Shown here piece by piece: positions 3,319-55,472 of a DNA stretch of 64,000 nucleotides. Every line of letters starts with the position of its first letter. Positions within the stretch are counted from its first letter, which is position 1. The notes below the pieces were generated by a model, which searched no databases, was not told the origin of the DNA, and saw only the letters and a program-made list of their open reading frames with translations. Source of the stretch: an uncultured Gammaproteobacteria bacterium (GTDB lineage: Bacteria > Patescibacteriota > Patescibacteriia > SG8-24); the NCBI GenBank assembly GCA_964626205.1, contig CAZVED010000005.1, positions 31,603-95,602 of the forward strand. Reading direction: 5' to 3'. The position numbers and the translations under genes were made by a program.

Positions 3319-5394
<2,076 letters not shown>

Positions 5395-6659: not shown

Positions 6660-7244
6660 CTACGCCTTGTCGCCTTCGACGGCGCCAGTCGCGCGAGCGC
6701 GGTACATGCTATGAATGAGATCGACCGCCTTGTGGCAGGTCATCGCGAGCGAGTCACAGAACTCCGGCGGCGCGGCACCGATGGCGCGCGCCTCTTCCGT
6801 CATGTCGTGCTTGAGGTAGCGCTGGCCCGAGAACGCAGTGTCGAATCCCGCGACCATCCTCCCGCCGAGCAACACGAACCGCATGGCCTGCTTGCCGAGC
6901 TCGTAGCGAGTGGTCTGCGCGAACGGTCGTCCGCAGTGGTGCGTTTCCTCGTTCGCGCACCAGAACAGCGTGACGCCGTACTTCGCGGCGTAGGCGAGAT
7001 ACCGACGCTCCCAGTCGTATTGCACGACGCGCTCCTCGTCCGTCAGGTCGACGAACCCACCAAGTCGGCGCGGTGACGCGATGTGGATGTCGCCATCGAT
7101 GGCACGGATGAGGTCGCGAGCTTCCGCCTGCCAATCCGGCGCGCCTTGGATGGGGCCGGCCAGGAAGATGAGCGGATCGTTCGGCCATGTCGGGCCACCG
7201 ATGTTCAAGCGTGTCGGAGGGGTGAAAAACGTACCTGGGAACAT
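6660..7244 (-). CDS. nucleoside 2-deoxyribosyltransferase / DNPH1(Rcl)-like Rossmann protein
   Basis: N-terminal IFLAGPIQG motif and the catalytic-Glu motif TRYELG (D/T-x-[FY]-E-x-G), both typical of the PF05014 family. RBS gaggagg before ATG at 7244. The 221-aa track ORF has an N-terminal extension. Confidence 0.5.
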   Translation of the reverse strand: MFPGTFFTPPTRLNIGGPTWPNDPLIFLAGPIQGAPDWQAEARDLIRAIDGDIHIASPRRLGGFVDLTDEERVVQYDWERRYLAYAAKYGVTLFWCANEETHHCGRPFAQTTRYELGKQAMRFVLLGGRMVAGFDTAFSGQRYLKHDMTEEARAIGAAPPEFCDSLAMTCHKAVDLIHSMYRARATGAVEGDKA

Positions 7245-7319
7245 GCTGCCTCCTCGAAAAGAGCGTTGTCGGGTCGCGCCGAGCTTGTCACGGAAAAAGC
7301 TCCGTGTCAAGGCGCGTAT

Positions 7320-7348
7320 TGACAACGGCGAGACAGTGCTGTACAGTC
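7320..7348 (+). promoter_or_regulatory. sigma70-like promoter TTGACA-17-TACAGT upstream of secE-nusG
   Basis: ttgaca at 7320-7325, a 17-nt spacer, tacagt at 7343-7348. Followed by a leader hairpin cccccgcctccgggcgg + T7 at 7365-7390, then secE. Confidence 0.5.
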
Positions 7349-7409
7349 ATCTCAGTCAGTTCCCCCGCCTCCGGGCGGTTTTTTGAAACCATTAAAACTC
7401 GGCCCCACT

Positions 7410-7622
7410 ATGGCCAACTTCTCTCTCTCGGACAACGCACTCGTCAACTATATCCGCGCCTCGCGCGAGGAACTCGGCAAGGTCGTCTGGCCGCCGCGCG
7501 CCAAGGTCGTGAAGCATACCGCGATCGTCGTCGCGCTCTCGCTCCTCGTCGGTGCGTTCTTCGGCGCGTTGGACTTCGGCTTCAGCACCGGCCTGCAGCG
7601 TGTCATCGAACTCGCGCAGTAA
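7410..7622 (+). CDS. secE: preprotein translocase subunit SecE
   Basis: MANFSLSDNALVNYIRASREELGKVVWP followed by a single C-terminal TM helix. Immediately upstream of nusG. Confidence 0.85.
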   Translation: MANFSLSDNALVNYIRASREELGKVVWPPRAKVVKHTAIVVALSLLVGAFFGALDFGFSTGLQRVIELAQ

Positions 7623-7633
7623 CCTTCGGAACT

Positions 7634-8179
7634 ATGGCCAAACAGACAGCCCAACTCGGCCGCCGTTGGTACGCCATCCATACGTACTCCGGCTACGAGG
7701 AGAACGTGAAGTACAACCTCGAGCAGCGTATCGAGTCGCTCGACATGAAAGAAAAGATCTTCGCCGTCCTCGTCCCGAAGGAGAAGAAGATCAAGATCAA
7801 GAACGGCAAGCGCAAGGTCGTCGAAGAGAAGATCTTCCCCGGCTACGTGCTCGTGGAGATGGTCGTGGATGACGCGTCCTGGTACGTCGTGCGCAACACG
7901 CCGAACGTCACCGGATTCATCGGCACAGGGACCATCCCGACACCGGTCTCCGACACGGAAATCAAGTCGCTCCAGAAGCGCATGGGTGTGGACGAGCCGG
8001 AATACAAGATCGACGTGGAGGTCAACTCCGCGGTCACCATCAGCGACGGTCCGTTCAAGAACTTCGAAGGCAAGGTCGCCGAGATCGACGAGGCTCGCGG
8101 AAAGATCAAGGTCCTCGTCAACATGTTCGGTCGCGAAACGCCGGTGGAGCTGGACTTCTTGCAGGTCAAGAAAGTCTAA
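7634..8179 (+). CDS. nusG: transcription termination/antitermination factor NusG
   Basis: MAKQTAQLGRRWYAIHTYSGYEENV (NGN domain) and a C-terminal KOW (GPFKNFEGKVAEIDEARGKIKVLVNMFGRETPVELDF). Confidence 0.92.
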   Translation: MAKQTAQLGRRWYAIHTYSGYEENVKYNLEQRIESLDMKEKIFAVLVPKEKKIKIKNGKRKVVEEKIFPGYVLVEMVVDDASWYVVRNTPNVTGFIGTGTIPTPVSDTEIKSLQKRMGVDEPEYKIDVEVNSAVTISDGPFKNFEGKVAEIDEARGKIKVLVNMFGRETPVELDFLQVKKV

Positions 8180-8196
8180 ATGACGGAATAGCGGCC

Positions 8197-8255
8197 ATCT
8201 CGGGGTACAACTTTTTGTCGAGCCATAGTCTCGCCAAAAAGTGTACCCGTCGTGC
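8197..8255. repeat. 59-bp palindromic element, copy A (inverted partner at 16307-16365, 58/59 identical)
   Basis: atctcggggtacaactttttgtcgagccatagtctcgccaaaaagtgtacccgtcgtgc. Itself an imperfect hairpin (ggggtacaactttttg / caaaaagtgtaccc) with inner stem cgag-ccatagt-ctcg. Confidence 0.85.
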
Positions 8256-8413
8256 CCGCCCCTATCCGTCACACTTCTACCTCAACGTCACCTGAGCACG
8301 TCGAACCGAAAGCGACCGATATCGAAAAGCGCATCCATGCGGGTGCGCTTTTCGCATTGACGGAAAACGCTTCTCATGCCCAAGATACGCACGCACCGCA
8401 AGGAGGTCTTTCC

Positions 8414-9832
8414 ATGACACATGTCCAGCAGGTCCGTTCCCCTATCGACGGGGAAGTCTGTTTCGAGCAGCAAAAGACGTACACCGCGACAGCCACCGGC
8501 ATGGGCACCCTCGCCGAGCGTACGTTCCGCGACTGGCGGCTCGTTCCCGCGCCTGTGCGCGGCGAGCTCGTCCGTCGCTTCGGTGAAAAGCTGCGCGCGC
8601 ACGAAGACGTGCTCGCGGCGGTCATCACCCGCGAGTCCGGCAAGCTCCTTTCGGAGGCGCACATCGAAGTCCGTAAGATGGCCGACATGTGTGACTTCGC
8701 AGCCGGACTCTCGCGACAGCTCCACGGCATCACCATGCCGTCGGAACGCGCACGTCACCGGCTCATGGAGCAGTGGCATCCGTTGGGGCCCGTACTCGTC
8801 ATCACGTCATTCAACTTCCCGGCAGCGGTCTTCGTCTGGAACGCCGCGCTCGCACTCGTCTGCGGCAACCCGGTCATCTGGAAGCCGTCGGAGAAATGCC
8901 TCGGTACTGCCGACCTCTGCACGCGCCTCTTCCGCGAGGCCGCGACGGAAGTCCCCGGCTGCATTGGGCACCGTCTCCTGCAAGTCGCCGTCGGCGGCGC
9001 GGACGTCGCGAAAGCGCTCGTCGCGCTCCCGTATGTCCGGCTCGTCTCCGCCACGGGCAGCTGCGCCATGGGTCGCGATATCGCGGCACGGTGCGCACCG
9101 GACCTCGGCAAGCGCATGCTCCTCGAACTCGGCGGCAACAACGCAAGCATCGTGACACCGTCCGCCGACCTCGCCTCAGCGGTTCCGGCGATCGTCGCTG
9201 CCGCGACCGGCATGGCCGGGCAACGCTGTACGTCGCTGCGACGCCTCATCGTGCATGAGTCCGTCCGTGACGCGCTCGTCGAGCGCCTCGAAGCCGCGTA
9301 CGCCGCACTCGTCGTCGGCGACCCGCGCATCGCGGGAACGCACGTCGGCCCGATGATCGACGCCGCAGCATCGCTCCGTATGACGATCGCGCTCCAGCGC
9401 GCCGCCAAGGAAGACGGCACGGTCGTCTATGGCGGCAAACGCGTGGCCGTGCCTGGATGCGACGGCGGCTACTACCGCCACCCCGCGCTCATTACGATGC
9501 CGAGCCAGACGGAGATCGTCCGCGAAGAAACGTTCGCACCGATTCTTTACGTCATGACGTATCGGTACTTCGACGACGCCATCGCGATGCAGAACGGCGT
9601 CGCGCAAGGGCTTGCTTCCTCCATCTTCACGAACGACGTGCGCGAGGCGGAAGCGTTCCTCTCGGCGGCTGGCTCCGACTGCGGCGTCGCTGCAGTGAAC
9701 ACCGGCCCCGCGCTCGGCGACATCGGTGGCGCGTTCGGCGGTGAAAAGGACACGGGCGGCGGCCGCGAGTGCGGCTCCGATGCCTGGCGGCAGTACATGC
9801 GACGGTCCACACAGGTCGTGAACTTCGGTTAG
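8414..9832 (+). CDS. aldehyde dehydrogenase, ALDH7/AASADH (piperideine-6-carboxylate dehydrogenase)-like
   Basis: ALDH motifs (SFNFPAAV, ELGGNNASIV, catalytic-Cys region GQRCTS, EETFAPILYV) and the ALDH7-specific C-terminus IGGAFGGEKDTGGGRECGSDAWRQYMRRST. RBS aaggagg before ATG at 8414. The track ORF from 8252 starts inside repeat A. Confidence 0.8.
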   Translation: MTHVQQVRSPIDGEVCFEQQKTYTATATGMGTLAERTFRDWRLVPAPVRGELVRRFGEKLRAHEDVLAAVITRESGKLLSEAHIEVRKMADMCDFAAGLSRQLHGITMPSERARHRLMEQWHPLGPVLVITSFNFPAAVFVWNAALALVCGNPVIWKPSEKCLGTADLCTRLFREAATEVPGCIGHRLLQVAVGGADVAKALVALPYVRLVSATGSCAMGRDIAARCAPDLGKRMLLELGGNNASIVTPSADLASAVPAIVAAATGMAGQRCTSLRRLIVHESVRDALVERLEAAYAALVVGDPRIAGTHVGPMIDAAASLRMTIALQRAAKEDGTVVYGGKRVAVPGCDGGYYRHPALITMPSQTEIVREETFAPILYVMTYRYFDDAIAMQNGVAQGLASSIFTNDVREAEAFLSAAGSDCGVAAVNTGPALGDIGGAFGGEKDTGGGRECGSDAWRQYMRRSTQVVNFG

Positions 9833-9838
9833 GCTCTC

Positions 9839-9870
9839 TGACGACCCTCTCTTCTGGGGGTCATTTTTTG
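9839..9870 (+). terminator. rho-independent terminator after the ALDH gene
   Basis: tgacgaccctctcttctgggggtca followed by ttttttg. Confidence 0.6.
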
Positions 9871-9900
9871 TATGAAAAAACCGACAGCAGATGCCGTCGG
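9871..9900 (-). terminator. rho-independent terminator for the convergent minus gene
   Basis: The minus strand reads ccgacggcatctgctgtcgg followed by ttttttcat. Confidence 0.6.
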
Positions 9901-9902
9901 CT

Positions 9903-10469
9903 TCACGTAGGAAAGAAGAGAATCGTCATCCCGAACACTGCACGTGACGCACGGAGGAACTGCCCCCATGAACGGACCTGTACCTCGCTCTGTGCCGGAT
10001 CGAGATACCACACCCTACGATGCGATGCCGCCACAAGAACGACGTAATGTGGCTCTGGTGACGACTCCTCGTTACCATGCAGGACGTTCACGTCGACGCT
10101 GGCAATAACCGGTCTGCGCGCGGAAAGCTCTCGCATGACCATCGGACGCGTGAGCGTTCCGGATACGACCGTGCCGCCGACATCGACGTACGCGGACGAA
10201 AGCGCTTTAACGATGCTATATGCATCCTTCGACGCCTGCAGACGCACCTCGGTCTTCACGCCACAGCTCGCAAGCCACGCGGCGATGTCGAACGGAGAGC
10301 ACCCCTGCCAACCGGTCGACGTCGTGTTCCAAGAGAACTCCTTCGCGATATCCGCAAGCGGAACCTCCGCTCCGGTCAGGTAAGCATTCACCATGCCTGC
10401 GCACGCAGGCCCACACCACCGCGAGCTTTCTGGCTGCATGAGCAAAGGGATAGAAAGGAACGTCGGCAT
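9903..10469 (-). CDS. papain-like cysteine peptidase, C39-like (Peptidase_C39_2) domain protein
   Basis: Candidate catalytic Cys in SRWCGPACAGMVNAY and His in EPHYVVLVAAS, with the spacing and context typical of C39-like peptidases. Confidence 0.5.
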   Translation of the reverse strand: MPTFLSIPLLMQPESSRWCGPACAGMVNAYLTGAEVPLADIAKEFSWNTTSTGWQGCSPFDIAAWLASCGVKTEVRLQASKDAYSIVKALSSAYVDVGGTVVSGTLTRPMVMRELSARRPVIASVDVNVLHGNEESSPEPHYVVLVAASHRRVWYLDPAQSEVQVRSWGQFLRASRAVFGMTILFFPT

Positions 10470-10644
10470 TCACCACCTCCTTCAAGGGTCGAGTGAAATG
10501 ACTGCCTTTTTTATCATGAAAGGAGCTTATCGTCAAGCTCAAGACCACCTCTTTACAACCTCCAACCCATACGGTAAGGTGTCGCGGTAACGGTGGACCC
10601 CATTTAAGCCGGGGCGCTTCTCTCCGTTGCCTAACGACGGTTCT

Positions 10645-11070
10645 ATGGCAAAGGCTATCAAGGCCCTTATCAAACTCCAGATCCCGGCAGGCAAGGCGAA
10701 TCCTGCGCCGCCAGTGGGTCCCGCGCTCGGCCAACACGGCCTCAACATCGCGGAATTCTGTCAGAAGTTCAACGCCGCGACGCAACAGCTCGGCGGCGAC
10801 ATCACCCCGGTGGTGATCACGGTGTACGATGATCGCACCTACGACTTCATCCTCAAGACCCCTCCGGCCTCCGTCCTCATCAAGAAGGTCGCAGGCATCG
10901 AGAGCGGCGCGAAGAATCAACTCACGGACACGGCTGGCAGCCTCACGAAGGCGCAGGTCCGCGAGATCGCCGAGAAGAAGCTCCCGGATCTCAACACCAC
11001 GAACATCGAGTCCGCCATGCGCATCATCGAAGGCACGGCTCGGCAAATGGGCGTGAAGATCAAACCGTAA
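10645..11070 (+). CDS. rplK: 50S ribosomal protein L11
   Basis: [35 protein letters not shown]... Confidence 0.95.
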
Positions 11071-11136: not shown

Positions 11137-11817
11137 ATGGCACACGGAAAGCGCTACAACGAACTCGCGAAACTTGTCGACCGGACCAAGACCTACTCCG
11201 TCGAAGAGGCGGTCGCTCTCGTGAAGAAGACCTCCACCACCAAGTTTGATGGCTCCGTCGAAGTCCACGTCCGTCTCGGTATCGACCCGAAGAAGTCCGA
11301 CCAGCAGGTCCGCTCCACAGTGAGCCTTCCGCACGGTACGGGTAAGACGAAGAAGATTGCCGTCTTCACGGGCGGTGACAAGGAAAAGGAAGCGACGGAT
11401 GCGGGTGCGGACATTGTCGGCGGCGAAGAACTTATCGGCGAAATCGCCAAGTCCGGCAAGATCGACTTCGATGTCGCAATCGCAACGCCGGACATGATGC
11501 CGAAGCTCGCAAAGGTCGCAAAAATCCTCGGTCCGCGCGGCCTCATGCCGTCCCCGAAGAACGACACGGTCACCACGAACCTGACGAAGACCATCGAAGA
11601 GCTCAAGAAGGGTAAGGTCGCTTTCAAGACCGATGACACCGCCAACGTCCACCAGATCGTCGGCAAGGCATCGTTCTCGGAGGCCCAGCTCATCGAGAAC
11701 CTCACCGCGTTCATGGACGCGCTGAAGCGCAACAAGCCGTCGTCCTCCAAGGGCGTCTTCATCAAGAGCGTCACCCTGACCTCCACGATGGGCCCTGGTA
11801 TCAAGGTCGCAGCATAA
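11137..11817 (+). CDS. rplA: 50S ribosomal protein L1
   Basis: MAHGKRYNELAKLVDRTKTYSVEEAVALVKK... The intergenic hairpin ggtccgcacgcggacc at about 11089-11110 may be an L1 autoregulatory site. Confidence 0.95.
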   Translation: MAHGKRYNELAKLVDRTKTYSVEEAVALVKKTSTTKFDGSVEVHVRLGIDPKKSDQQVRSTVSLPHGTGKTKKIAVFTGGDKEKEATDAGADIVGGEELIGEIAKSGKIDFDVAIATPDMMPKLAKVAKILGPRGLMPSPKNDTVTTNLTKTIEELKKGKVAFKTDDTANVHQIVGKASFSEAQLIENLTAFMDALKRNKPSSSKGVFIKSVTLTSTMGPGIKVAA

Positions 11818-11902: not shown

Positions 11903-12481
11903 ATGATTCTCTCCGACAAGGACATCAAGCAAGCGCTCGCCGATGGACGGATTTCCATTGATCCGTACGACCCGTCATACGTGCAGCCGGCCTCCGTGGA
12001 CCTCCGCCTGGACCGGACGTTCCTTATCTTCGACACGGTGAATCACTACGTCATCGACGTCCGCAAACCGGCGGACGACCTTATGCGCAAAGTAGTCATC
12101 AAAGATGATGAGCCGTTCATCCTCCATCCGGGCGAGTTCGCGCTCGGCGCCACCTTCGAAGAGGTCGGTGTGGGCAACGACATGGTCGGCCGCTTGGAGG
12201 GAAAAAGTTCGCTCGGCCGGCTCGGCATCATCATCCACGCCACCGCCGGCTACCTCGACCCAGGCAACAAACTCAAGATGACGCTCGAACTCTCCAACAT
12301 CGGCTCGCTTCCGGTGAAGCTCTATTACAAGATGCCGATCGCGCAGATGTCCTACTCCCCGCTTTCGAGCGTCTGTGAAAATCCGTACGGCAGCGGAAAA
12401 CTGCACTCCAAGTACTACGGCGCCCAGGAACCGCAAGCATCGCAGATGTGGAAAAATTTTGAAAAAAAGGATACTGAATGA
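11903..12481 (+). CDS. dcd: dCTP deaminase
   Basis: MILSDKDIKQALADGRISIDPYDPSYVQPASVDLRLDRTF... typical Dcd N-terminus and length. Its stop overlaps the next start (ATGA). Confidence 0.85.
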   Translation: MILSDKDIKQALADGRISIDPYDPSYVQPASVDLRLDRTFLIFDTVNHYVIDVRKPADDLMRKVVIKDDEPFILHPGEFALGATFEEVGVGNDMVGRLEGKSSLGRLGIIIHATAGYLDPGNKLKMTLELSNIGSLPVKLYYKMPIAQMSYSPLSSVCENPYGSGKLHSKYYGAQEPQASQMWKNFEKKDTE

Positions 12482-12879
12482 TCCGTATGGTGCTCCGCTC
12501 CCGCAACTCCATGGCCGCAACCGTCGCAGCAATCGCTGTCGGCGTGTTCGGCGCGCTACCAACGTTCGCGCAAACAACGATGGATTACGGCATGGACTAC
12601 GCTGAGGGTATCGGCCTCCCATCCGCACCGTTGCAGACCATCATCACCGGCTTTCTCCGCGCAACCCTCGGCTTCGTCGGCTTCGCCATGGTGCTCCAGA
12701 TCATGTACGCCGGCTACCTCATGATGACCCACGGCGACAAGGAAGAAGCGCGCGAGAAGGCCGTCGCCGCGCTTACGCAGAGCGTCGTCGGCTTTCTCAT
12801 CATCGCCACCGCCACCTCTACCGCGAAGTTCGTCGTGAATGCGGTGGTGAACGCGCAGAACGGCGGCTTCTACTCCTAG
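12478..12879 (+). CDS. TrbC/VirB2-like T4SS pilin family protein (signal peptide + two hydrophobic helices)
   Basis: Signal peptide ending ALPTFAQ, then helices LQTIITGFLRATLGFVGFAMVLQIMYAGYLMM and SVVGFLIIATATSTAKFVVNAV. RBS aagga. ATGA overlap with the dcd stop, and dut starts 5 nt after its stop. Confidence 0.65.
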   Translation: MIRMVLRSRNSMAATVAAIAVGVFGALPTFAQTTMDYGMDYAEGIGLPSAPLQTIITGFLRATLGFVGFAMVLQIMYAGYLMMTHGDKEEAREKAVAALTQSVVGFLIIATATSTAKFVVNAVVNAQNGGFYS

Positions 12880-12883
12880 CACC

Positions 12884-13318
12884 ATGAACCTCCGCATCAC
12901 CCGCATCGACAAGGGGCTCCCGCTGCCGAAATACGAAACGTCCGGCGCCTGCGCGTTCGATGTCTTCGCGCGTGAAGAGGTGGTCGTGGCGCCAAAGTCC
13001 CTCGGCATGATTCCGACCGGCCTCGTGGTCTGCGTACCTAGCGGCCACACACTTCTCCTCGCCTCGCGCTCCTCCACCCCAAAAAAGAAAGGCTTGCTCA
13101 TCCCCCACGGCATCGGCATCGTGGATCAAGACTACTGCGGCCCGGAGGACGAGATGAAAGTGCAAGTCTGGAACTTCACCGATGAGCCAGTTACCGTCAC
13201 ACGTGGCGAACGCATCGCTCAAGCCATGCTCGTCCCCATCGTCCGTGCAGAGCTCGTCGAGACAGAGGCTGGCACACTGCAAGAAAAAAGTCGTGGCGGA
13301 TTCGGAAGTACAGGATGA
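12884..13318 (+). CDS. dut: dUTP diphosphatase
   Basis: dUTPase motifs GIGIVDQDYCG and the C-terminal RGGFGSTG. Confidence 0.9.
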   Translation: MNLRITRIDKGLPLPKYETSGACAFDVFAREEVVVAPKSLGMIPTGLVVCVPSGHTLLLASRSSTPKKKGLLIPHGIGIVDQDYCGPEDEMKVQVWNFTDEPVTVTRGERIAQAMLVPIVRAELVETEAGTLQEKSRGGFGSTG

Positions 13319-13350
13319 AAAAATGACCCTCTGCTGAGAGGGTCATTTGC
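13319..13350. terminator. bidirectional terminator between dut (+) and gmk (-)
   Basis: gaaaaaatgaccctctgctgagagggtcatttgcg (A-run, hairpin, T-run). Confidence 0.7.
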
Positions 13351-13360
13351 GTTGGAGAAG

Positions 13361-13957
13361 CTACTCCTTATCTGCAACCGGCGGAATGTCGTCACGTCGC
13401 TCCACGATGGCAAGCAGTTCCTCGACCGTTGCCTTGAGCATTCCGTCGCGGTTCGTAATGACGCTGCCGAACTCGTGTGCCGCGGCGACCTCCTCACGTG
13501 CGCGCTGCATGCGCCACTCGACGTCCTCCTTGGACCGCTGACGCGCTTCATGCCGCTTGCGAAGCTGCTCCAGCGACTCCGGCCGGATGAAGATGGACCG
13601 TGATTCAGGGAACGCAGCAAGAGCCTTGCGTGCGCCATTCACGTCGATGACCGCGAAAACGACATCGTAGTCGTGCAGCATCTGTTCGATGACGACACGG
13701 GAAGAACCGTACAGGTTCCCGTCGAACTCGTTGTACTCAAGGAACTCTCCGCGCTCGATCCTGCGCTCGAACTCCTCACGATCAATGAAGTGATAGTCTT
13801 CTCCATCGACCTCTCGGTCCCCTTTCGGACGCGTCGTCGTCGTGACCAGGCGCGCAGCAGAAGGCAGGCGCGCGATCGCCTCTTCGACAATGGTCGTCTT
13901 TCCGCCCGCGGACGGACCGATGACGACGACCAATTCACCGTGCTTGCCATGCTCCAT
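13361..13957 (-). CDS. gmk: guanylate kinase
   Basis: MEHGKHGELVVVIGPSAGGKTT (P-loop), TTTRPKGDREVDGEDYHFI. Alternative upstream start at 13996 (MVATMEL...). The 276-aa track ORF is over-extended. Confidence 0.85.
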   Translation of the reverse strand: MEHGKHGELVVVIGPSAGGKTTIVEEAIARLPSAARLVTTTTRPKGDREVDGEDYHFIDREEFERRIERGEFLEYNEFDGNLYGSSRVVIEQMLHDYDVVFAVIDVNGARKALAAFPESRSIFIRPESLEQLRKRHEARQRSKEDVEWRMQRAREEVAAAHEFGSVITNRDGMLKATVEELLAIVERRDDIPPVADKE

Positions 13958-14051
13958 AGGATCTCCATTGGATGGAAGCTCCATGGTAGCAACCATCCCC
14001 GTGGCGGGCAAGTACGAAAAGCCGGCCCGAAACATCGGGCCGGTACGGGAA

Positions 14052-14837
14052 TCAGACCTTGCGGTATGCGGGAACGTACGACGGAATGCCGTTGATGTCC
14101 TGGATGTCGTACCCTTGGAAGAAGTTCGGGTACCGTTCTGAGACCGTCGCAGCGACCTCCGCGAAGACGAGACGGATCTCCTCCTCTGCACCCTCGGACG
14201 TGCGCATCTCGATCACGTGCCGCAGCGCGCGGGCGTTGGCAGACCAGCCAATGGTCGTCGCGAGCCCTTCGGGCGCGAGACGGCGCATCGCCGACGTGAC
14301 CTCCTTCTTCTTGGCGAACGGCAGCGCGCCCTCGTCGAGCTTGAAGTGCGCGGCCAGCGTGCGCTGCATGTCCTCCAAGATCTCGACGGTCGAAGTGACG
14401 AGCTCGCAGACGACCTCATCTTCCGCGAAGCAGACCGGGAGCCAGAAGCCGATGTCCGTGAGACGCACGTACCGGAGGCTCTCCTGGGAGATGGCCGTGC
14501 CGGCACGGTGCCGGACGAGCTCGTGCGTGAACACGCGCGAGACGTCCGCGAAGACGAAGTTGAACTGGGGATGCTCGAGCACGGAGCCGTGCGCCGACTT
14601 CAGGATGTTCTCGAGGTACAGCGCATTGCCCTCGCGGATCTTCGTCACGTTCGGATTCAATCCGACTTCGAAGCTCCGGTAACACAGGCGACCGTAGAAC
14701 TCAGCGAGCTTCTCGGCGTCAGAGCCTGCATCCGTCGACCAGTGCGGGATGCCGAGATGCTTAAGATACGCCTGCAGGCCGTCGGGGACGATTCGTGTCT
14801 CCCCGATAAGGAAAACACGTGGAGTGACTGAACGCAT
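14052..14837 (-). CDS. thyX: FAD-dependent thymidylate synthase ThyX
   Basis: ThyX motif ELVRHRAGTAISQESLRYV (RHR...S). RBS aaggagg before ATG at 14837. Confidence 0.9.
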   Translation of the reverse strand: MRSVTPRVFLIGETRIVPDGLQAYLKHLGIPHWSTDAGSDAEKLAEFYGRLCYRSFEVGLNPNVTKIREGNALYLENILKSAHGSVLEHPQFNFVFADVSRVFTHELVRHRAGTAISQESLRYVRLTDIGFWLPVCFAEDEVVCELVTSTVEILEDMQRTLAAHFKLDEGALPFAKKKEVTSAMRRLAPEGLATTIGWSANARALRHVIEMRTSEGAEEEIRLVFAEVAATVSERYPNFFQGYDIQDINGIPSYVPAYRKV

Positions 14838-14962
14838 CGGATACCTCCTTGCTTGAACGCTGCTGCAGTATACACGTAGGCCAACTCCGGTCAACCGCAC
14901 CGTCCACCTGGCCCGCTTGCGATGAGATTCTCGGCATGGCAAGCTCCTTGCGGGAGGATCTT

Positions 14963-15691
14963 ATGACCCACGGCAAACTCATCGTCATCGAAGGTTCCGA
15001 CGGATCCGGCAAGGCCACGCAGACGAAGCTGCTTGCCGAACGAATCGGCCAAGACGTCGCGACCTTCGCCTTCCCCCGCTACGGCATGCCCGCAGCACAC
15101 CTGCTGCAGCGCTACCTCGGACGGAACATGGACCGCTACGCGCGGACCCTCACGCCGTACCAGGCCTCGTTCACCTACGCCGCAGACCGGCTCGACTGGG
15201 CTGTCACGGAAGGTTACGCGCTGCTGGAAAGCGGTGCGAACGTTCTCCTGGACCGGTACGTCCTGTCAAACCTGGCGCACCAAGGCGCCCGCATCCCGAA
15301 CTTCGAGATGCGACGCCTGTTCTACGACTGGTGCCTCGGGTTCGAATTCATGGACCTTCAGCTCCCTCGCCCGGACCTCACCGTCCTGCTCCACGTCGCA
15401 TCGGAAGTGAGCATCGCGCTCATCGAGAAACGCGGCGCAACGACGGACGCGCATGAGGCCGACCATAGCCACCTGCGCGCAGCGGAAGCCGCCTACCTCG
15501 AGCTCGCAGACCTCCTCCCCGGCCTCGGCCACAAAGTGCGCGTCGTGGAATGCATGCGCAATCCCGACATGTCCCCCGAGGACATCCGCACAGCACTCGC
15601 GGATGGCGGCATCGGAGCCGTCCTCCTCACGGAAGCGGAAATCCACGAGTGCGTCTGGGAGGCTGTCCAGCCGACCATCCTCGCCTCATGA
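14963..15691 (+). CDS. tmk: thymidylate kinase
   Basis: MTHGKLIVIEGSDGSGKATQTKLLAERIG. RBS gggagg before ATG at 14963. Track ORF extended from 14849. Confidence 0.88.
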   Translation: MTHGKLIVIEGSDGSGKATQTKLLAERIGQDVATFAFPRYGMPAAHLLQRYLGRNMDRYARTLTPYQASFTYAADRLDWAVTEGYALLESGANVLLDRYVLSNLAHQGARIPNFEMRRLFYDWCLGFEFMDLQLPRPDLTVLLHVASEVSIALIEKRGATTDAHEADHSHLRAAEAAYLELADLLPGLGHKVRVVECMRNPDMSPEDIRTALADGGIGAVLLTEAEIHECVWEAVQPTILAS

Positions 15692-15699
15692 ACCGCACG

Positions 15700-15730
15700 C
15701 CCCGCATCATCACGATGCGGGGTTTTTCTT
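15700..15730 (+). terminator. rho-independent terminator after tmk
   Basis: ccccgcatcatcacgatgcgggg followed by tttttcttg. Confidence 0.7.
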
Positions 15731-15816
15731 GTCCATAGACTTGACCGTACCGGCAAGCCATGCTACCCTCATCGGTCCGCCTCACTGCCAAACCGAGAGC
15801 GGAAGAGGGGTACGTC

Positions 15817-16197
15817 ATGAAGGACATGTACCAACAACCGGAATTCGAAGAACGGAAGTACGGATGGAACAGCGCCCTGCAACTCGGCTATCGGAAGACC
15901 GCGGCACTCATCGCGGACCGGAGTCATTGCTACACGGAGATCATGAACGCGCTTGCCGAAGAGGCAGGCATCGAGACCGCATTGGCGCACCTTGAGACGA
16001 TTGGCTATGCCCGATGGGCCTACCGTTTCGCGCGCCACGTCGCAGGACTCACCCCAGCGCAGCACAACCGCCTCATCGCCATCGTCACGGCCTCTGGCAG
16101 CATCGAGTACGCAACCTGGTACTTCGAAGATGTCGCTGACCTCACAGAAGATCATCTGTCACAGCTCCGTGCCGCCGCGTTACGGAAAGCCGCCTGA
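15817..16197 (+). CDS. hypothetical protein (126 aa)
   Basis: MKDMYQQPEFEERKYGWNS... Followed by a strong terminator. No family recognised. Confidence 0.4.
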   Translation: MKDMYQQPEFEERKYGWNSALQLGYRKTAALIADRSHCYTEIMNALAEEAGIETALAHLETIGYARWAYRFARHVAGLTPAQHNRLIAIVTASGSIEYATWYFEDVADLTEDHLSQLRAAALRKAA

Positions 16198-16204
16198 ATC
16201 GACC

Positions 16205-16245
16205 CCGGCACGACGTGTGCCGGGGTTTTTCTTTAAACATCAGCC
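16205..16245 (+). terminator. rho-independent terminator
   Basis: accccggcacgacgtgtgccggggt followed by ttttctttaaa. Confidence 0.7.
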
Positions 16246-16306
16246 AGCAAAACAAGTTCGGGAGTTCTCGTAGAATATGGCACGCGCGTCCGATATGAGG
16301 AGGTGA

Positions 16307-16365
16307 GCACGACGGGTACACTTTTTGGCGAGACTATGGCTCGACAAAAAGTCGTACCCCGAGAT
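16307..16365. repeat. 59-bp palindromic element, copy B (reverse complement of copy A at 8197-8255, one mismatch)
   Basis: gcacgacgggtacactttttggcgagactatggctcgacaaaaagtcgtaccccgagat is the reverse complement of copy A except for a T/C at one position. Confidence 0.85.
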
Positions 16366-16411
16366 GCTCACCATTCCTCCCCAAAAGACACTCGTGCTAT
16401 ACTATTTCCAT

Positions 16412-51647: not shown

Positions 51648-53312
51648 TTACGCGCTTTTTACCGTCGGAAGCACCACGTGGAAGGTCGTCCCCTTTCCCT
51701 CCTCGGAATCAAACCATACGCGACCATCATGCTTCTCCACGATGGATTTCACGATATACAGACCAAGGCCGGTCCCTTCGACCCCTTCCGCGGCGTTCGA
51801 TGCACGGAAGAACTTACTGAACATCTTCGGCTGCTCGTCCTTAGGAATCCCCATTCCAGCGTCCTTCACGAAGAGCTGCAGCACTCCATCGACCGTCTCC
51901 AATCCGACCTCCACCTTGCCGCCGTCCCGCGAGTATTTCACCGCATTGCCAATCAGGTTCGAGAACACCTCCCTGAACTTGTCGGTATCCACATCGAGCA
52001 TGAGCGAGGCAGGAAGCGTCGGCGATGCCAGCACGACCTTCTTTTGTGTCGCTGCGGGCACGAAGTCCGTGAGGATCGACGCGAGCACCGGAACGACATC
52101 GGTAGGCTTGCGGACCAAGTTGAACTTCTTGCCAGTCTCGATACGCGACACGCTCAGCAAGTCGCCCACCAAGCGCAATAGCCGATCCGCGATGGATTCG
52201 ACCTGCGACACGGGCTGATGCTGCTCTGCCGAAATCTTGCCGAAATCGCCGCCAAGGAGCGCTTCTACCGTCCACTTGATGCTGGTGAGCGGAGTCTTGA
52301 GCTGATGACTGGCGAGCGAGACAAATTCCGTCTTCATCTGGTCGATCTCGTGCTCTTTCGTCATATCCTCATATACGGAAACCGCACCGTTCACGCTGCC
52401 ATCCGCGCCTCGCACCGGCGCCGCAACAACACGGAGAACGATACGTCCGCCATCAGGACGATTCACAAAGATATCGGACTTGGTGACCGTCTCCCCCGAC
52501 TTGAGTGCCATCGATGTCGGAAGCTCTTCCGGCGGATAGGGTGATCCGTTCTCTTTGCTGACATGAAATCGAGCCGTATACTTGGCAATGTTCAGCATGG
52601 ACTCCGGTTCACGGCCAGCGATACGTATCGCGGCGCCGTTCACCGCAAGTGTCTCACCTTGCGCATTGACCATGATCGCGCCGACCGGAAGGTTCTCAAG
52701 CAATACACGCAAACGCTCACGCTGCTCGACGACGACACGCCGCGCCTTGTCCCAACCGCTTTCTGCGACGTACCCAAGCAAGTTCAACAGGAGCAGCGAC
52801 GACCATACTTGCCTCAATTGATCGTATTCGTAATAGGACGCCACGGCACCCTGTCGCACAGCAAGCGCATAGGCAACGTGCGAGACGAAAAATGCGGCAT
52901 TGTACCAGTTACCGAGCCTCACCCCTTGGAACAGGTACGTCGTGCTCGGGAATACGAGTGACCAATAGATGCCTGTGCCATTAATGCCACCGCTCTCGAG
53001 AATGACGAGCAAAAGCACACCCGAACAAATAGTGATTGCTGGTTTGGCGAGCGCAATCCGCTTGTGCCACTTATACAGGAACCAGTTCACGACTTCGATG
53101 ACACCGAGCCCGATTTCCAGAAGCCCGAGGCCGATGTCACCCTGACTCAACCGGTACGCGCCATACGCAAGCAAGTAGGGCGCCAGTAGCCACGTAAAAA
53201 GGTTCAGCATCCGTTGCTGACGCCTCTCTTCTGCGGCCTCGGCGGTCGTTTGCTCGAAAAACAAGCTCGTATTCACAGCATTTTTTTGGTCCATATCCTC
53301 ATATTTTAGCAA
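51648..53312 (-). CDS. sensor histidine kinase (polytopic membrane N-terminus, PAS, HisKA, HATPase_c); no response regulator adjacent
   Basis: H-box LASHQLKTPLTSI, N-box NLIGNAVKYS, G-boxes DAGMGI and GTGLGL, PAS-like segment. Confidence 0.85.
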   Translation of the reverse strand: MLKYEDMDQKNAVNTSLFFEQTTAEAAEERRQQRMLNLFTWLLAPYLLAYGAYRLSQGDIGLGLLEIGLGVIEVVNWFLYKWHKRIALAKPAITICSGVLLLVILESGGINGTGIYWSLVFPSTTYLFQGVRLGNWYNAAFFVSHVAYALAVRQGAVASYYEYDQLRQVWSSLLLLNLLGYVAESGWDKARRVVVEQRERLRVLLENLPVGAIMVNAQGETLAVNGAAIRIAGREPESMLNIAKYTARFHVSKENGSPYPPEELPTSMALKSGETVTKSDIFVNRPDGGRIVLRVVAAPVRGADGSVNGAVSVYEDMTKEHEIDQMKTEFVSLASHQLKTPLTSIKWTVEALLGGDFGKISAEQHQPVSQVESIADRLLRLVGDLLSVSRIETGKKFNLVRKPTDVVPVLASILTDFVPAATQKKVVLASPTLPASLMLDVDTDKFREVFSNLIGNAVKYSRDGGKVEVGLETVDGVLQLFVKDAGMGIPKDEQPKMFSKFFRASNAAEGVEGTGLGLYIVKSIVEKHDGRVWFDSEEGKGTTFHVVLPTVKSA

Positions 53313-53339
53313 AAAAATGACCCGCTGTATAGCGAGTCA

Positions 53340-55472
53340 TTACTCCACATGCGCCGACTCCACGGCGACACGAACCTGCTCGGCAAGGAGCGGGTACCCG
53401 GCGAGCGTGGGGTCTTCCGCAAGGATGCGCTGAGCGGCTTCTTTGGCAGTGCGGACGAGGCTCATGTCCGCAATACTCGCGAATCGGAGCTCCGGGAACC
53501 CGGACTGAGCGTCACCCAGCAGGTCGCCGGGACCGCGCAGCTCTAGGTCTTTTTCCGCGAGCGTGAACCCGTCCTTGTGCTGCACTACCGCCTTGAGCCG
53601 CGCCTTTTCGCCGTCCGTATCCTTCGTGGGGAACAGGAAGCAATACGACGCATGCGCTCCCCTACCGATACGCCCACGGAACTGATGGAGCTGCGCGAGA
53701 CCGAACCGCTCCGCACCCTCGATGCACATCACGCTGGCATTCGGCACGTCCACGCCGACTTCCACGACAGAGGTCGCCACAAGCACCTGCGTCTCGCCCG
53801 CAACGAACCGTCGCATGACCTCTTCTTTCTCCGCAGAGGAGAGCTTCCCGTGAAGCATGCCGACCGTATACCCCTTCAACTCCCCCTTAGCGAGTTTCTC
53901 AAAAAGTTCGGTCACGGATGCTGCCTCCACCATGTCGGAACGGTCGATGAGCGGACAGACTACGAACGCCTGCCGTCCTTGGTCGAGCTGACCGCGCACG
54001 AACGCGAATGCCCTCTTGCGGCCGACCGGCATGACCAGTTTCGTTTCGATATCCTTGCGCGCTGCCGGTTTCTCCTTGAGGAGCGAGAGGTCGAGGTCGC
54101 CGTATGCCGTGAGCGCCAACGAGCGCGGAATCGGCGTTGCAGTCATAGAGAGCAAGTGCGGCTCCGTCCCAACATCACCGCTCTTGGCACGGAGGAGCTT
54201 GCGCGTCCGTACGCCGAACCGATGCTGTTCGTCCACCACGGCGAAAGCAAGGTCGTGGAAACTGAGCGCGTCATAGACGAGCGCATGCGTGCCGATGATG
54301 ATATCCACGCGTCCTTTGGCGATTTCCTCGCCGAGCGCAGCAACCTCCTTTTTCCCTTTCGCTTCGATCTCTTTGCCACCCCGCACCGAACGACGATGCG
54401 CATTGGTCCAGAGCACGATGGTCACATTCTTCTCGCTGGCGAACGTGCGTGCGAACGTGCCGAAGTGCTGCTGCGCGAGAATCTCCGTCGGTGCCATGAC
54501 CGCAACCTGACGACCTGCCGCAACGACGTTCCGTGCGGCAATCATCGCGACCGCGGTCTTGCCAGTACCTACGTCCCCGTCCAAAAGCCGCGCCATGGGA
54601 ATATTCCTGCCCATGTCCTGCATCGCCTCCCACGCTGCGACACGCTGATCCTTGGTGAGGGGGAACGGCAACGACGCCACGAACGCTTTCACGATGTCCT
54701 CGGCAAACGGCACTGGCGCCGCAGTCGCCTTCTCGCGATATGCGCGCATCCTACCGACGGCGATTTGCAGCCGCAGAAGCTCGTCAAACGCCAGGCGGTG
54801 ACGAGCGCGGTCCGCACTGCCCTCAGCTGTCGGAAAATGCGCCTCGCGGAGAGCGGCGGCGAGAGGAAGGAGCCCATACTCCGTGAGTAGCGGCTCCGGG
54901 AGCGGGTCCGGTAAAAGGTCGATGACCGACGCGCACTTTGCCACCGATACCCGCACCGCGCGCTGCGTCAGCCCGATGGTGAGCGGATACACTGGCATGA
55001 CCTCGCGTACGGAGGTGTCGTTTGCCGCGCTCGCAGCAGGCGTCACGACATCCAGAGAACCGACGCGTTCGAACTGCGGATTGATGAGCTTCTTCCCGAA
55101 CTTGGACAGCTTCACCTTTCCCGCGAACCGATATGCATTTCCCACGACGAGCGTCTTCACGAGGTATGGTTGGTTGAACCAGATCGCGCCAATCTCGTCC
55201 GTGCCATCGGAGAGTACAGCCTCGGTCATGGTCATGCGCTTGCGGAAGCTGCGCTTGTTCTGGAGCGCTGTCACCTGCAACGTGAGTGCGACGTTCGTTT
55301 CTGGTATCGCCTCCACCAACCCGCCGCTACCGTACGTTTCGTAGCGAAACGGAAGGTGCAGAAGCAAGTCCCGCACGGTCACAAGGCCGATACCCGAAAA
55401 AACCGGGCATAGCCGTTTGACGATGCCAGGAACATCTTCGAGCCGCGTATCCGGCGTGATCTGCCGTTTCAT
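53340..55472 (-). CDS. recG: ATP-dependent DNA helicase RecG
   Basis: Wedge domain, helicase motifs DVGTGKTAVAM, DEQHRFG, SMTATPIPRS, QFRGRIGRG. Confidence 0.93.
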   Translation of the reverse strand: MKRQITPDTRLEDVPGIVKRLCPVFSGIGLVTVRDLLLHLPFRYETYGSGGLVEAIPETNVALTLQVTALQNKRSFRKRMTMTEAVLSDGTDEIGAIWFNQPYLVKTLVVGNAYRFAGKVKLSKFGKKLINPQFERVGSLDVVTPAASAANDTSVREVMPVYPLTIGLTQRAVRVSVAKCASVIDLLPDPLPEPLLTEYGLLPLAAALREAHFPTAEGSADRARHRLAFDELLRLQIAVGRMRAYREKATAAPVPFAEDIVKAFVASLPFPLTKDQRVAAWEAMQDMGRNIPMARLLDGDVGTGKTAVAMIAARNVVAAGRQVAVMAPTEILAQQHFGTFARTFASEKNVTIVLWTNAHRRSVRGGKEIEAKGKKEVAALGEEIAKGRVDIIIGTHALVYDALSFHDLAFAVVDEQHRFGVRTRKLLRAKSGDVGTEPHLLSMTATPIPRSLALTAYGDLDLSLLKEKPAARKDIETKLVMPVGRKRAFAFVRGQLDQGRQAFVVCPLIDRSDMVEAASVTELFEKLAKGELKGYTVGMLHGKLSSAEKEEVMRRFVAGETQVLVATSVVEVGVDVPNASVMCIEGAERFGLAQLHQFRGRIGRGAHASYCFLFPTKDTDGEKARLKAVVQHKDGFTLAEKDLELRGPGDLLGDAQSGFPELRFASIADMSLVRTAKEAAQRILAEDPTLAGYPLLAEQVRVAVESAHVE

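What the first reader, a model, noticed from the sequence alone, without database searches (positions are those of the whole stretch)
8414..10469. ALDH7-type dehydrogenase and C39-like peptidase inserted between nusG and rplK
The secE-nusG-rplK-rplA cluster is among the most conserved gene orders in bacteria. Here an ALDH7/AASADH-like gene, whose C-terminus matches the highly specific IGGAFGGEK.TGGGRE.GSDAW.QYMRRST signature, and a convergent C39-like cysteine peptidase are inserted, with convergent terminators between them. The palindromic repeat A marks the nusG-side junction. This suggests horizontal acquisition at a repeat-marked breakpoint. A P6C/AASA dehydrogenase is unexpected in a reduced genome.
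Basis: partly seen in the sequence, partly recalled or inferred. Interest (0 to 1): 0.5.

Follow-up and report, generated by a model that had tools for sequence, protein, structure and literature searches.

The report
Altered ALDH7 gene in nusG–rplK slot
In a tiny-genome (Patescibacteria) bacterium, the gap between two normally adjacent housekeeping operons holds a laterally acquired aldehyde dehydrogenase that has lost the features defining its enzyme family, plus an orphan cysteine peptidase; this is an unusual enzyme variant in an otherwise fairly ordinary variable spot.

Summary
An ALDH7-type gene (8414-9832, +) and a C39_2-like peptidase gene (9903-10469, -) lie between nusG and rplK, with convergent terminators. 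A 76-nt palindromic repeat sits just after nusG.

The genome is a Patescibacteria (ABY1-like) genome. The closest relative found, L169 (NusG 90%, L11 93%), is collinear but has only an 82-aa ORF in this position. The window-specific DNA is therefore 8180-10547.

This junction is an operon boundary. rplK keeps its own conserved promoter. ALDH sits behind the conserved nusG terminator, promoter and SD. Relatives carry different cargo in the same gap: an IS1595 transposase, ASCH, ORFans, or nothing.

Two related contigs also carry ALDH7 beside rplK, but inverted. Their ALDHs are 66% identical while their L1 proteins are 89% identical. That argues for repeated lateral acquisition or replacement rather than simple vertical descent. 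Codon usage is native-like, so the event is not recent.

The most unusual point concerns the enzyme. This ALDH keeps its catalytic residues but has lost the ALDH7 substrate determinants: E121K, a remodelled anchor loop, and no C-terminal "crook". It scores below the P6C-dehydrogenase cutoff. It is probably not an AASA/P6C dehydrogenase.

Interest is moderate to low.

The parts
7383..7622 (+). secE
   Evidence: Pfam SecE 59 bits; TIGR00964.
7640..8179 (+). nusG. DNA homology with the closest relative L169 ends at its stop codon.
   Evidence: TIGR00922 204 bits. blastn: window 6701-8179 = L169 1066-2488.
8180..8320 (.). Window-specific 141-bp insertion between the nusG stop and the conserved terminator. 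It contains repeat A.
   Evidence: No counterpart in L169. Homology resumes at 8321.
8185..8260 (.). Palindromic repeat A, copy 1 (long hairpin).
8321..8416 (+). Conserved 'slot' signals. Terminator-like hairpin 8329-8348 plus T-run; shared motif TTTTCGCATTGACG 8349-8362 (-35-like TTGACG 8357-8362); SD AAGGAGG 8400-8406; ATG 8414.
   Evidence: Local alignment to L169 2493-2577 scores 43, against shuffles 18.8 +/- 3.0 (max 35). Motif positions. Promoter function is inferred.
8414..9832 (+). ALDH7-derived aldehyde dehydrogenase, 472 aa. Catalytic N134, E238 and C272 are kept. Substrate determinants are changed (K88 for Glu121; A433-L434-G435-D436 for S460-G461-A462-E463). The C-terminal tail is absent.
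9843..9869 (+). Intrinsic-terminator-like hairpin plus T-run ending ALDH.
9875..9900 (-). Intrinsic-terminator-like hairpin plus T-run ending the peptidase gene.
9903..10469 (-). Orphan C39_2-like papain-fold cysteine peptidase, 188 aa, with Q12/C19/H141/D157 and no signal peptide.
   Evidence: Pfam PF13529 42.6 bits. Invariant Q, C, H, D in alignment A2. AF2 pLDDT 85; Foldseek 3erv TM 0.69, PeiR, PCAT1. Strong SD GAAGGAGGTG at 10474-10483.
10470..10547 (-). Window-specific spacer with a candidate promoter for the peptidase gene: TTGACG (10536-10531), 17 nt, TAAAAA (10513-10508).
   Evidence: Read from the sequence. Inferred; not flagged by the consensus scan.
10548..10644 (+). Conserved rplK promoter and leader: TTTACA 10552-10557, 17 nt, TAAGGT 10575-10580.
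   Evidence: Aligns to L169 2880-2985 with score 119. blastn homology resumes at 10548.
10645..11070 (+). rplK (L11)
   Evidence: TIGR01632 198 bits; ATG position.
11137..11817 (+). rplA (L1)
   Evidence: TIGR01169 324 bits.
16302..16377 (.). Palindromic repeat A, copy 2 (inverted). It lies at the edge of a second window-specific island (15668-16394), 17 nt upstream of a conserved TGCTATACT -10 element.

Best explanation
The segment 8180-10547 is lineage-specific DNA in the boundary between two separate transcription units, secE-nusG and rplKA. The host is a Patescibacteria (ABY1-type: relatives of Uhr-, Magasanik- and Falkowbacteria) genome.

Insertions here are tolerated because rplK keeps its own conserved promoter and leader. 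In this family the gap therefore behaves as a variable gene slot.

In this genome the slot holds three things:
1. A small palindromic repeat inserted between the nusG stop and its terminator.
2. An ALDH7-derived aldehyde dehydrogenase gene. Its start codon sits behind the same terminator/-35/SD stretch that precedes an 82-aa ORF in the closest relative.
3. A convergent orphan C39_2 papain-fold cysteine peptidase gene with its own SD and a likely promoter.

ALDH7 entered this group laterally. It has been acquired or replaced more than once at this position. It is not a recent arrival, because its codon usage matches the host.

The enzyme keeps the full ALDH catalytic apparatus and the NAD-type Glu after KPSE. 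It has lost the determinants that make ALDH7 an alpha-aminoadipate-semialdehyde/P6C dehydrogenase: Glu121 is Lys, the G461-A462-E463 anchor loop is L-G-D, and the C-terminal crook is missing. It most likely oxidises a different aldehyde. One that lacks the alpha-ammonium group and carries an extra negative charge is plausible, but this is an inference.

No functional link between the dehydrogenase and the peptidase is indicated.
For: Taxon and synteny:
- 80 GTDB relatives of NusG are all Patescibacteria-type MAGs.
- Most have nusG-rplK gaps under 200 bp. 14 of 80 exceed 300 bp, including all eight closest GTDB relatives.
- Gap cargo includes an IS1595 transposase (L001), ASCH (L041, L057; remnant in L055), PDDEXK_3 (L058, L059) and ORFans (L047, L052).

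Closest relative L169:
- Identities are NusG 90.5%, L11 93%, L1 82%, Dcd 90%. Gene order is collinear, with no ALDH or C39.
- Homology breaks at 8179 and resumes at 10548.
- Window 8321-8416 aligns to the L169 nusG-downstream terminator/promoter/SD. The rplK promoter is conserved.

ALDH7 beside rplK elsewhere:
- It occurs in the P0003 contig and in L164.
- An NJ tree groups the window ALDH with these, with bootstrap 63/100.
- The L1 proteins of L164 and the P0003 contig are 89% identical, but their ALDHs are only 66% identical. P0003 is closer to P0002 (72%), which has a different genomic context.

Amelioration:
- GC3 is 0.82 and the synonymous log-likelihood is -0.89, both within the native range.

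Enzyme:
- The window protein deviates at 20 of 173 near-invariant columns, against 0-3 for the 13 other members checked.
- The changes cluster at residues 84-90, 258-267 and 425-436.
- E121K, G461L, A462G, E463D and I452V are mapped on the 4x0t alignment.
- The roles of these residues come from PMC11362210, PMC13162559 and PMC6127216.
- It is the only one of 120 sequences without the LPLAQGI.F tail.
- NF050084 scores 636 against a cutoff of 730, whereas six relatives score 734-760.
Against: - The ALDH clade support is only moderate (NJ, 63%), and no ML tree was possible.
- The taxonomic origin of P0002, P0004, P0005 and P0024 is unknown.
- The P0003 contig has no DNA available. Its L1 (P0236) is assigned to it by matching contig length (7066 bp) and gene length only.
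- ALDH presence elsewhere in the genomes of relatives could not be checked, because only +/-10 kb was fetched. Relocation rather than absence is therefore possible.
- No mobility gene lies in the window segment.
- The promoters are inferred from sequence. The -10 for ALDH is weak (CAAGAT).
- The change of substrate specificity is inferred from residue identities, not measured. The same pattern could reflect relaxed constraint.
Confidence: 0.6

Rival explanations
1. Ancient, vertically inherited arrangement. The common ancestor of this Patescibacteria family already carried ALDH7 between nusG and rplK. The gene was then inverted in some lineages and lost or replaced in many others, and the window copy simply evolved fast.
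For: - ALDH7 lies next to rplK in three related lineages.
- The window ALDH clusters with those copies.
- Codon usage is native.
- These copies share a shortened or divergent N-terminus.
- ASCH cargo is shared by the L041/L055/L057 subclade, which shows that slot content can be inherited.
Against: - The closest relative, L169, lacks it, as do L047 (grouped with L164 as sister to the window) and six other family members. That requires at least 4-5 independent losses.
- L164 and the P0003 contig are 89% identical in L1 but only 66% in ALDH. P0003's ALDH is closer to copies in other genomic contexts.
- Orientation and companion genes differ between lineages.
Confidence: 0.2
2. Recent horizontal acquisition from a non-CPR donor, mediated by the palindromic repeat A acting as a recombination or transposition site.
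For: - Repeat A lies 6 nt from the synteny breakpoint after nusG.
- Its only other copy also lies at the edge of a window-specific island.
- The copies are 59/60 identical in the core.
- Overall ALDH GC is 0.67 against about 0.60, and its tetranucleotide distance is at the 98th percentile.
Against: - GC3 and synonymous codon choice are native. The GC excess lies in codon positions 1 and 2.
- Repeat A is separated from ALDH by a stretch homologous to L169.
- There is no copy at the rplK side and no transposase or integrase in the segment.
- The nearest ALDHs sit in CPR-type contexts.
Confidence: 0.07
3. The ALDH gene is a decaying remnant under relaxed selection. The N- and C-terminal truncations and the substitutions at invariant sites would then be degeneration, not new function.
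For: - 20 deviations at near-invariant columns.
- Loss of about 25 N-terminal and 12-23 C-terminal residues.
- Score below the equivalog cutoff.
Against: - The 472-codon ORF is intact, with a strong SD and native codon bias.
- 153 of 173 near-invariant columns are retained, including all catalytic and cofactor motifs.
- The deviations cluster in three pocket-lining segments rather than being spread evenly.
Confidence: 0.1
4. Assembly or binning artefact: a chimeric join of foreign DNA into a CPR contig.
For: The source is a metagenome-assembled genome. ALDH and the peptidase are singletons at 90% identity clustering.
Against: - Both junctions lie in continuous sequence, with CPR-type homology on each side.
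- ALDH shares host codon usage.
- ALDH-rplK adjacency is reproduced in two independent assemblies.
Confidence: 0.03

Closest known systems
ALDH7 family / L-piperidine-6-carboxylate (alpha-aminoadipate semialdehyde) dehydrogenase (human ALDH7A1 4x0t/4zul; mycobacterial Pcd 6rtr; NCBIfam NF050084)
   Same: - It is the best sequence match by far: 509 bits to 6rtr and 383 bits to ALDH7A1.
- It has the same fold family, PF00171.
- Catalytic Cys302, Glu268 and Asn167 are kept.
- Arg301, Thr303 and the aromatic box Phe168/Trp175/Phe468 are kept.
- The GGAFGGEK-TGGGRE-GSDAW-QYMRR signature is present.
   Different: - Glu121 is Lys, and the neighbouring Gln120 is Arg.
- The anchor loop S-G-A-E is A-L-G-D.
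- Ile452 is Val, Phe292 is Ala and Thr297 is Met.
- The C-terminal crook (LPLAQGI.F) is absent, and the N-terminal ~25 residues are absent.
- NF050084 scores 636 against a cutoff of 730.
Peptidase_C39_2 (PF13529) stand-alone C39-like peptidases, e.g. B. anthracis 3erv; more distantly PCAT1/ComA C39 domains and PeiR
   Same: Papain-like fold (TM 0.69 to 3erv). A conserved Gln/Cys/His/Asp set. Pfam score above the cutoff.
   Different: - There is no ABC-transporter fusion and no signal peptide.
- PF03412 (true C39) scores below its cutoff (17.8 against 22).
- Only 7 weak homologues exist among 1.84 billion representatives (best E 1.5e-9).
- It lacks a ~40-residue insert that most of those homologues carry.
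Variable gene insertions at operon boundaries of the secE-nusG / rplKAJL region (own knowledge: in E. coli, secE-nusG and rplKA are separate transcription units)
   Same: The insertion lies exactly between the nusG stop/terminator and a conserved rplK promoter. Relatives carry other cargo at the same place.
   Different: The cargo here is a metabolic enzyme plus a peptidase. The first cargo gene reuses a conserved terminator/promoter/SD stretch that is also found in the closest relative.
REP / MITE-like palindromic intergenic repeats
   Same: The element is about 76 nt and near-perfectly palindromic. Both copies are intergenic, and they are 59/60 identical in the core.
   Different: Only two copies occur in 64 kb, and none in the loci of relatives. 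No clear target-site duplication was seen, and no associated transposase is known.

Membership tests
ALDH superfamily (PF00171) | Pfam score above gathering cutoff; catalytic Cys302, general base Glu268, oxyanion Asn167 | tested here: met
   400 bits against a cutoff of 23. C272, E238 and N134 align with the catalytic residues of 4x0t.
ALDH7 / P6C-AASA dehydrogenase | NCBIfam equivalog NF050084 score >= 730 | tested here: not met
   636 bits. Six nearest relatives score 734-760, and typical proteobacterial or actinobacterial members score about 825.
ALDH7 / P6C-AASA dehydrogenase | Glu121 forming the ion pair with the substrate alpha-amino group | tested here: not met
   Lys88 aligns with Glu121. 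Glu is invariant in the 119 other homologues. The role of the residue is from PMC11362210.
ALDH7 / P6C-AASA dehydrogenase | Arg301 and Thr303 flanking the catalytic Cys; aromatic box Phe168/Trp175/Phe468 | tested here: met
   R271-C272-T273, F135, W142 and F441 are conserved in the alignment to 4x0t.
ALDH7 / P6C-AASA dehydrogenase | Aldehyde anchor loop Gly461-Ala462-Glu463 | tested here: not met
   L434-G435-D436 here. S-G-A-E is invariant in the 119 homologues. The loop's role is from PMC13162559 and PMC6127216.
ALDH7 / P6C-AASA dehydrogenase | C-terminal tail with the 'crook' (LPLAQG) that gates the substrate tunnel | tested here: not met
   The protein ends at NFG. All 119 others carry 12-23 further residues. 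The DNA downstream is a terminator, not a frameshifted tail.
ALDH7 / P6C-AASA dehydrogenase | Catalytic activity on AASA/P6C | not testable with these tools
   This needs an enzyme assay.
Peptidase_C39_2 (PF13529) | Pfam score above cutoff; papain-like fold; Cys/His catalytic dyad with Gln and Asp | tested here: met
   42.6 bits against a cutoff of 24. Q12, C19, H141 and D157 are invariant in A2. Foldseek to 3erv gives E 7e-7 and TM 0.69.
Peptidase C39 proper (bacteriocin-processing, PF03412) | Score above cutoff; fusion to or neighbourhood of an ABC exporter and double-glycine peptide genes | tested here: not met
   17.8 bits against a cutoff of 22. No ABC transporter lies in the neighbourhood.
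Horizontally acquired island | Absent from the closest relatives at a collinear locus | tested here: met
   L169 is collinear and lacks the segment. 0 of 80 GTDB relatives have either gene in the locus.
Horizontally acquired island | Atypical codon usage or composition; mobility genes | tested here: not met
   GC3 and synonymous usage are native-like. No integrase or transposase lies in 8180-10547.
MITE/REP-like repeat (repeat A) | Palindromic or TIR structure, multiple dispersed intergenic copies, target-site duplication | tested here: inconclusive
No clear target-site duplication was seen.

The most novel reading that the evidence does not exclude
The nusG-rplK spacer of this Patescibacteria family is a promoter-equipped cassette slot in which lineage-specific genes are exchanged. 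In this lineage the exchanged ALDH7 has been re-engineered: the charge at Glu121 is reversed, the anchor loop is rebuilt and the gating tail is deleted. The result would be a dehydrogenase for a different aldehyde, probably an anionic one (dicarboxylic or phosphorylated), giving a metabolically minimal symbiont a new NAD(P)H-yielding or detoxifying step.
Probability: 0.25. Interest if true: 0.55.

Novelty: new variant of a known kind. Interest (0 to 1): 0.35.

Why it matters
Patescibacteria have very small genomes with few metabolic enzymes, so any retained laterally acquired dehydrogenase is likely to matter to how they live.

This ALDH7 derivative has intact chemistry but has lost all three elements that gate and recognise alpha-aminoadipate semialdehyde. 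It would be mis-annotated as a lysine-catabolism enzyme. It is a compact natural example of how ALDH7 specificity can be rewired.

The locus also shows that the 'universally conserved' secE-nusG-rplKA order is broken at a specific operon boundary in this group, and that different cargo is swapped in there.

Neither point changes a major concept. Both are useful for annotation and for choosing targets for enzymology.

Tried and rejected
- Exact-protein look-ups for the window ALDH, P0001 and P0004 found nothing on record.
- The single metagenome scan, seeded with P0003, returned 80 ALDH loci. None had nusG or rplK nearby, so it added no CPR context.
- The contexts of the weak C39 homologues P0122 and P0123 are short ORFan contigs and were uninformative.
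- Rfam found nothing in the segment at either the gathering or the E-value threshold.
- Repeat A was not found in any relative. attC-like or promoter-like readings of it were considered and dropped, because the motifs and spacing do not fit.
- No homology exists between the gap contents of L047, L164 and the window apart from ALDH.
- No lysine-catabolism partner genes (lat, lysDH, hglS) were found among about 40 window genes scanned. All are housekeeping.
- I recalled that GapN binds G3P phosphate with Arg124, Arg301 and Arg459, as a possible analogy for the E121K change. A literature search for it found nothing, so it remains an unverified memory and is not used as evidence.
- The global MAFFT alignment of the nusG-downstream regions was misleading and was replaced by a local alignment with a shuffle control.
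Full report
**What is there**

The window is a roughly 60% GC genome fragment carrying typical Patescibacteria housekeeping genes: gyrB, secE, nusG, rplK, rplA, dcd, dut, gmk, thyX, tmk, gatB, miaA, thrS, dnaE, pheST, clpB, radA, recG, a T4SS-type pilin and a TraG-like ATPase.

Two ORFs lie between nusG (7640-8179) and rplK (ATG at 10645):
- An aldehyde dehydrogenase at 8414-9832 (+, 472 aa). It matches Pfam Aldedh at 400 bits, and its best NCBIfam match is the P6C dehydrogenase model NF050084.
- A Peptidase_C39_2 protein at 9903-10469 (-, 188 aa), scoring 42.6 bits against a cutoff of 24.

Both genes have strong Shine-Dalgarno sequences. They end in convergent hairpin-plus-T-run terminators at 9843-9869 and 9900-9875.

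A 76-nt palindrome, 'repeat A' (8185-8260), starts 6 nt after the nusG stop. It has one other, inverted, copy at 16302-16377.

**Whose genome, and what do relatives look like**

A NusG-seeded scan of one genome per GTDB species returned 80 loci. All are Patescibacteria-type MAGs labelled Uhr-, Magasanik-, Falkow-, Buchananbacteria and similar, with a best identity of 87-88%.

None of the 80 has an ALDH or C39 homologue within +/-10 kb of nusG. Most have nusG-rplK gaps under 200 bp. However, 14 of 80 exceed 300 bp, and all eight closest GTDB relatives do.

The gaps hold varied cargo:
- An IS1595 transposase in L001.
- An ASCH-domain gene in L041 and L057, with a remnant in L055.
- PD-(D/E)XK_3 genes in L058 and L059.
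- ORFans in L047 and L052.
- Nothing in L031 and L051.

Interruption of this 'universal' gene order is thus not rare in this group.

**Exact boundaries**

An L1-seeded protein search found a much closer relative, L169, a 10.2-kb JGI contig. Its identities to the window are NusG 90.5%, L11 93%, L1 82% and Dcd 90%.

L169 is collinear: NDT-like, secE, nusG, [82-aa membrane ORF], rplK, rplA, dcd, pilin, dut, gmk. It has no ALDH or C39.

DNA homology (75-77% identity) runs from window 6701 to 8179 and resumes at 10548. A local alignment refines this:
- Window 8321-8416 is homologous to L169 2493-2577, scoring 43 against shuffles of 18.8 +/- 3.
- That stretch holds a terminator-like hairpin, the shared motif TTTTCGCATTGACG, an SD and the ATG.
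- The rplK promoter and leader (TTTACA, 17 nt, TAAGGT, 10552-10580) are conserved.

Three conclusions follow:
- The junction is an operon boundary, and rplKA has its own promoter.
- ALDH starts exactly where the 82-aa ORF starts in L169, behind the same signals.
- Repeat A belongs to a separate 141-bp insertion (8180-8320) between the nusG stop and its terminator.

The other copy of repeat A also lies at the edge of a window-specific island (15668-16394, containing a 145-aa ORFan). It sits 17 nt upstream of a conserved TGCTATACT element. The repeat is therefore associated with lineage-specific DNA. It does not flank the ALDH/C39 segment as a pair, and nothing shows that it mediated the insertion.

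**Origin of the ALDH**

Among 5.8 billion proteins, the best non-self hit is 63% identical. Named hits are proteobacterial or actinobacterial P6C dehydrogenases.

The top hits P0002-P0005, P0009 and P0024 form a group with the window protein in an NJ tree, with bootstrap 63/100. Two of them sit next to rplK-rplA in CPR-type contigs:
- P0003 is on an ENA contig of 7066 bp. The order is dUTPase, lactamase_B, pilin, L1, L11 and a 127-aa ORF on one strand, then a 101-aa ORF and ALDH on the other.
- P0009 is on L164. The order is L1, L11 and a 131-aa membrane ORF on one strand, then ALDH and a HEAT-repeat protein on the other.

The L11 and L1 of L164 are 80% and 70% identical to the window's. An L11+L1 tree places the window as sister to (L047, L164), with bootstrap 84/100.

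Four points argue against simple vertical descent:
- The gene is inverted in those contigs.
- The companion genes differ.
- ALDH-lacking lineages (L169, L047, and the ASCH group) are interleaved with ALDH-bearing ones.
- The L1 proteins of L164 and the P0003 contig are 89% identical, while their ALDHs are only 66% identical. P0003's ALDH is closer (72%) to P0002, which sits in a YgjP-like context.

This incongruence favours repeated lateral acquisition or replacement in a permissive slot over a single ancestral insertion with many losses. The latter is not excluded.

The event is not recent. ALDH GC3 (0.82) and synonymous codon log-likelihood (-0.89) are within the native range. Its higher overall GC (0.67) and its 98th-percentile tetranucleotide distance come from codon positions 1 and 2, that is, from amino-acid composition.

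**The enzyme is not a standard ALDH7**

The window protein differs at 20 of the 173 columns that are at least 95% conserved in the 119 closest homologues. The 13 other members checked differ at 0-3 such columns.

The changes cluster in three segments. On the alignment to human ALDH7A1 (4x0t) they map to:
- G117I, Q120R, E121K, I123A
- F292A, T297M
- I452V, N454A, S460A, G461L, A462G, E463D

The literature assigns roles to these positions:
- Glu121 and Arg301 form the ion pairs with aminoadipate (PMC11362210).
- Gly461-Ala462 are the hydrogen-bonding anchor loop, and Ile452 lines the substrate tunnel (PMC13162559).
- The C-terminal 'crook' together with the anchor loop is considered a defining feature of family 7 (PMC6127216).

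The window protein is the only one of 120 that lacks the C-terminal tail. It ends at ...VVNFG, while all others continue for 12-23 residues with LPLAQGI.F. The DNA beyond its stop codon is the terminator. The canonical N-terminal ~25 residues are also absent.

Several features are retained: catalytic Cys, Glu and Asn; Arg301 and Thr303; the aromatic box; the KPSE and EETFAP cofactor motifs; and 153 of the 173 near-invariant columns.

It scores 636 bits against NF050084 (cutoff 730). Its six nearest relatives score 734-760 and pass.

The pattern is intact chemistry, a rebuilt substrate site and a net charge shift of about +3 around position 121. This points to altered specificity rather than random decay, but only an assay can decide. 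No lysine-catabolism partner genes occur in the 64-kb window. By contrast, one clade member (P0024, L163) sits next to an HglS gene.

**The peptidase**

The 188-aa protein is an orphan. The word-indexed search found only itself. A full phmmer pass over 1.84 billion representatives gave seven weak hits, the best at E 1.5e-9 and 37% identity.

Gln12, Cys19, His141 and Asp157 are invariant in the seven-sequence alignment. An AlphaFold model (pLDDT 85) matches the B. anthracis C39-like peptidase 3erv (TM 0.69), PeiR and PCAT1/ComA peptidase domains.

It has no signal peptide and no ABC-transporter partner. PF03412 scores below its cutoff. It is best described as a stand-alone, probably cytoplasmic, papain-fold cysteine peptidase or amidase with an unknown substrate. 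Neither ALDH7-bearing relative has a C39 gene nearby, so nothing links the two genes functionally.

**Verdict**

The lateral-origin interpretation is broadly right. The emphasis on a uniquely broken 'most conserved' gene order, on a repeat-marked breakpoint and on a P6C/AASA dehydrogenase is not borne out.

The site is an operon boundary that is a recurrent variable slot in this family. The acquisition is old enough to be fully ameliorated. The enzyme has lost the family's defining substrate-recognition elements. I rate it a new variant of a known kind, of moderate-to-low interest (0.35).

Noticed in passing
window 15668-16394: A second window-specific island relative to L169. It holds a 145-aa ORFan (15760-16197, no Pfam hit) with its own candidate promoter and terminator, followed by repeat A copy 2 just upstream of the conserved -10 element of the next gene.
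   Followed up: partly
L003, L004, L005, L013, L021, L023, L024, L034, L038 (between L11 and L1 matches): Many related Patescibacteria have 1-3.8 kb inserted between rplK and rplA. These two genes are usually co-transcribed and autoregulated by L1. The contents were not examined.
   Followed up: no
L001 5271-6065 (-); L041 10580-10915; L057 10575-10925; L058 1190-1597; L059 3976-4410: Cargo in the same nusG-rplK slot of relatives: an IS1595-family transposase, ASCH-domain proteins and PD-(D/E)XK_3 nucleases.
   Followed up: partly
L163 2408-3208 (-) next to ALDH 3362-4861: In one member of the same ALDH clade (P0024), the ALDH7 gene is adjacent to an HglS-family (PF07063) gene and a 2OG-Fe oxygenase. 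This is a bona fide lysine/2-oxoadipate catabolic context, which is absent from the window.
   Followed up: no
window 14052-14942 (-) vs L169 6657-8430: thyX lies on the minus strand in the window but on the plus strand in L169. L169 also has an extra 356-aa gene between gmk and thyX. This is a local rearrangement between close relatives.
   Followed up: no
window 9843-9869, 13318-13347, 53312-53341: Three terminator-like sites share a near-identical motif (AAAAAATGACCC...GGGTCATTTTTT). This is a recurrent terminator sequence family within the window.
   Followed up: no
window 59400-59482: A strong GC-rich palindrome with 35-nt arms, 89% complementary, 13 nt apart (GCCTCCCCGGAGGGGCCTGGCC...). 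Its function is unknown.
   Followed up: no
window 16201-16236 and L169 2822-2857: The terminator after the window's 145-aa ORFan is 86% identical to the terminator after L169's 82-aa slot gene, although the genes themselves are unrelated.
   Followed up: no
window 6660-7325 (-), 11903-15691: A dense nucleotide-salvage cluster surrounds the ribosomal-protein genes: NDT-like, dcd, dut, gmk, thyX, tmk. It is conserved in L169.
   Followed up: no
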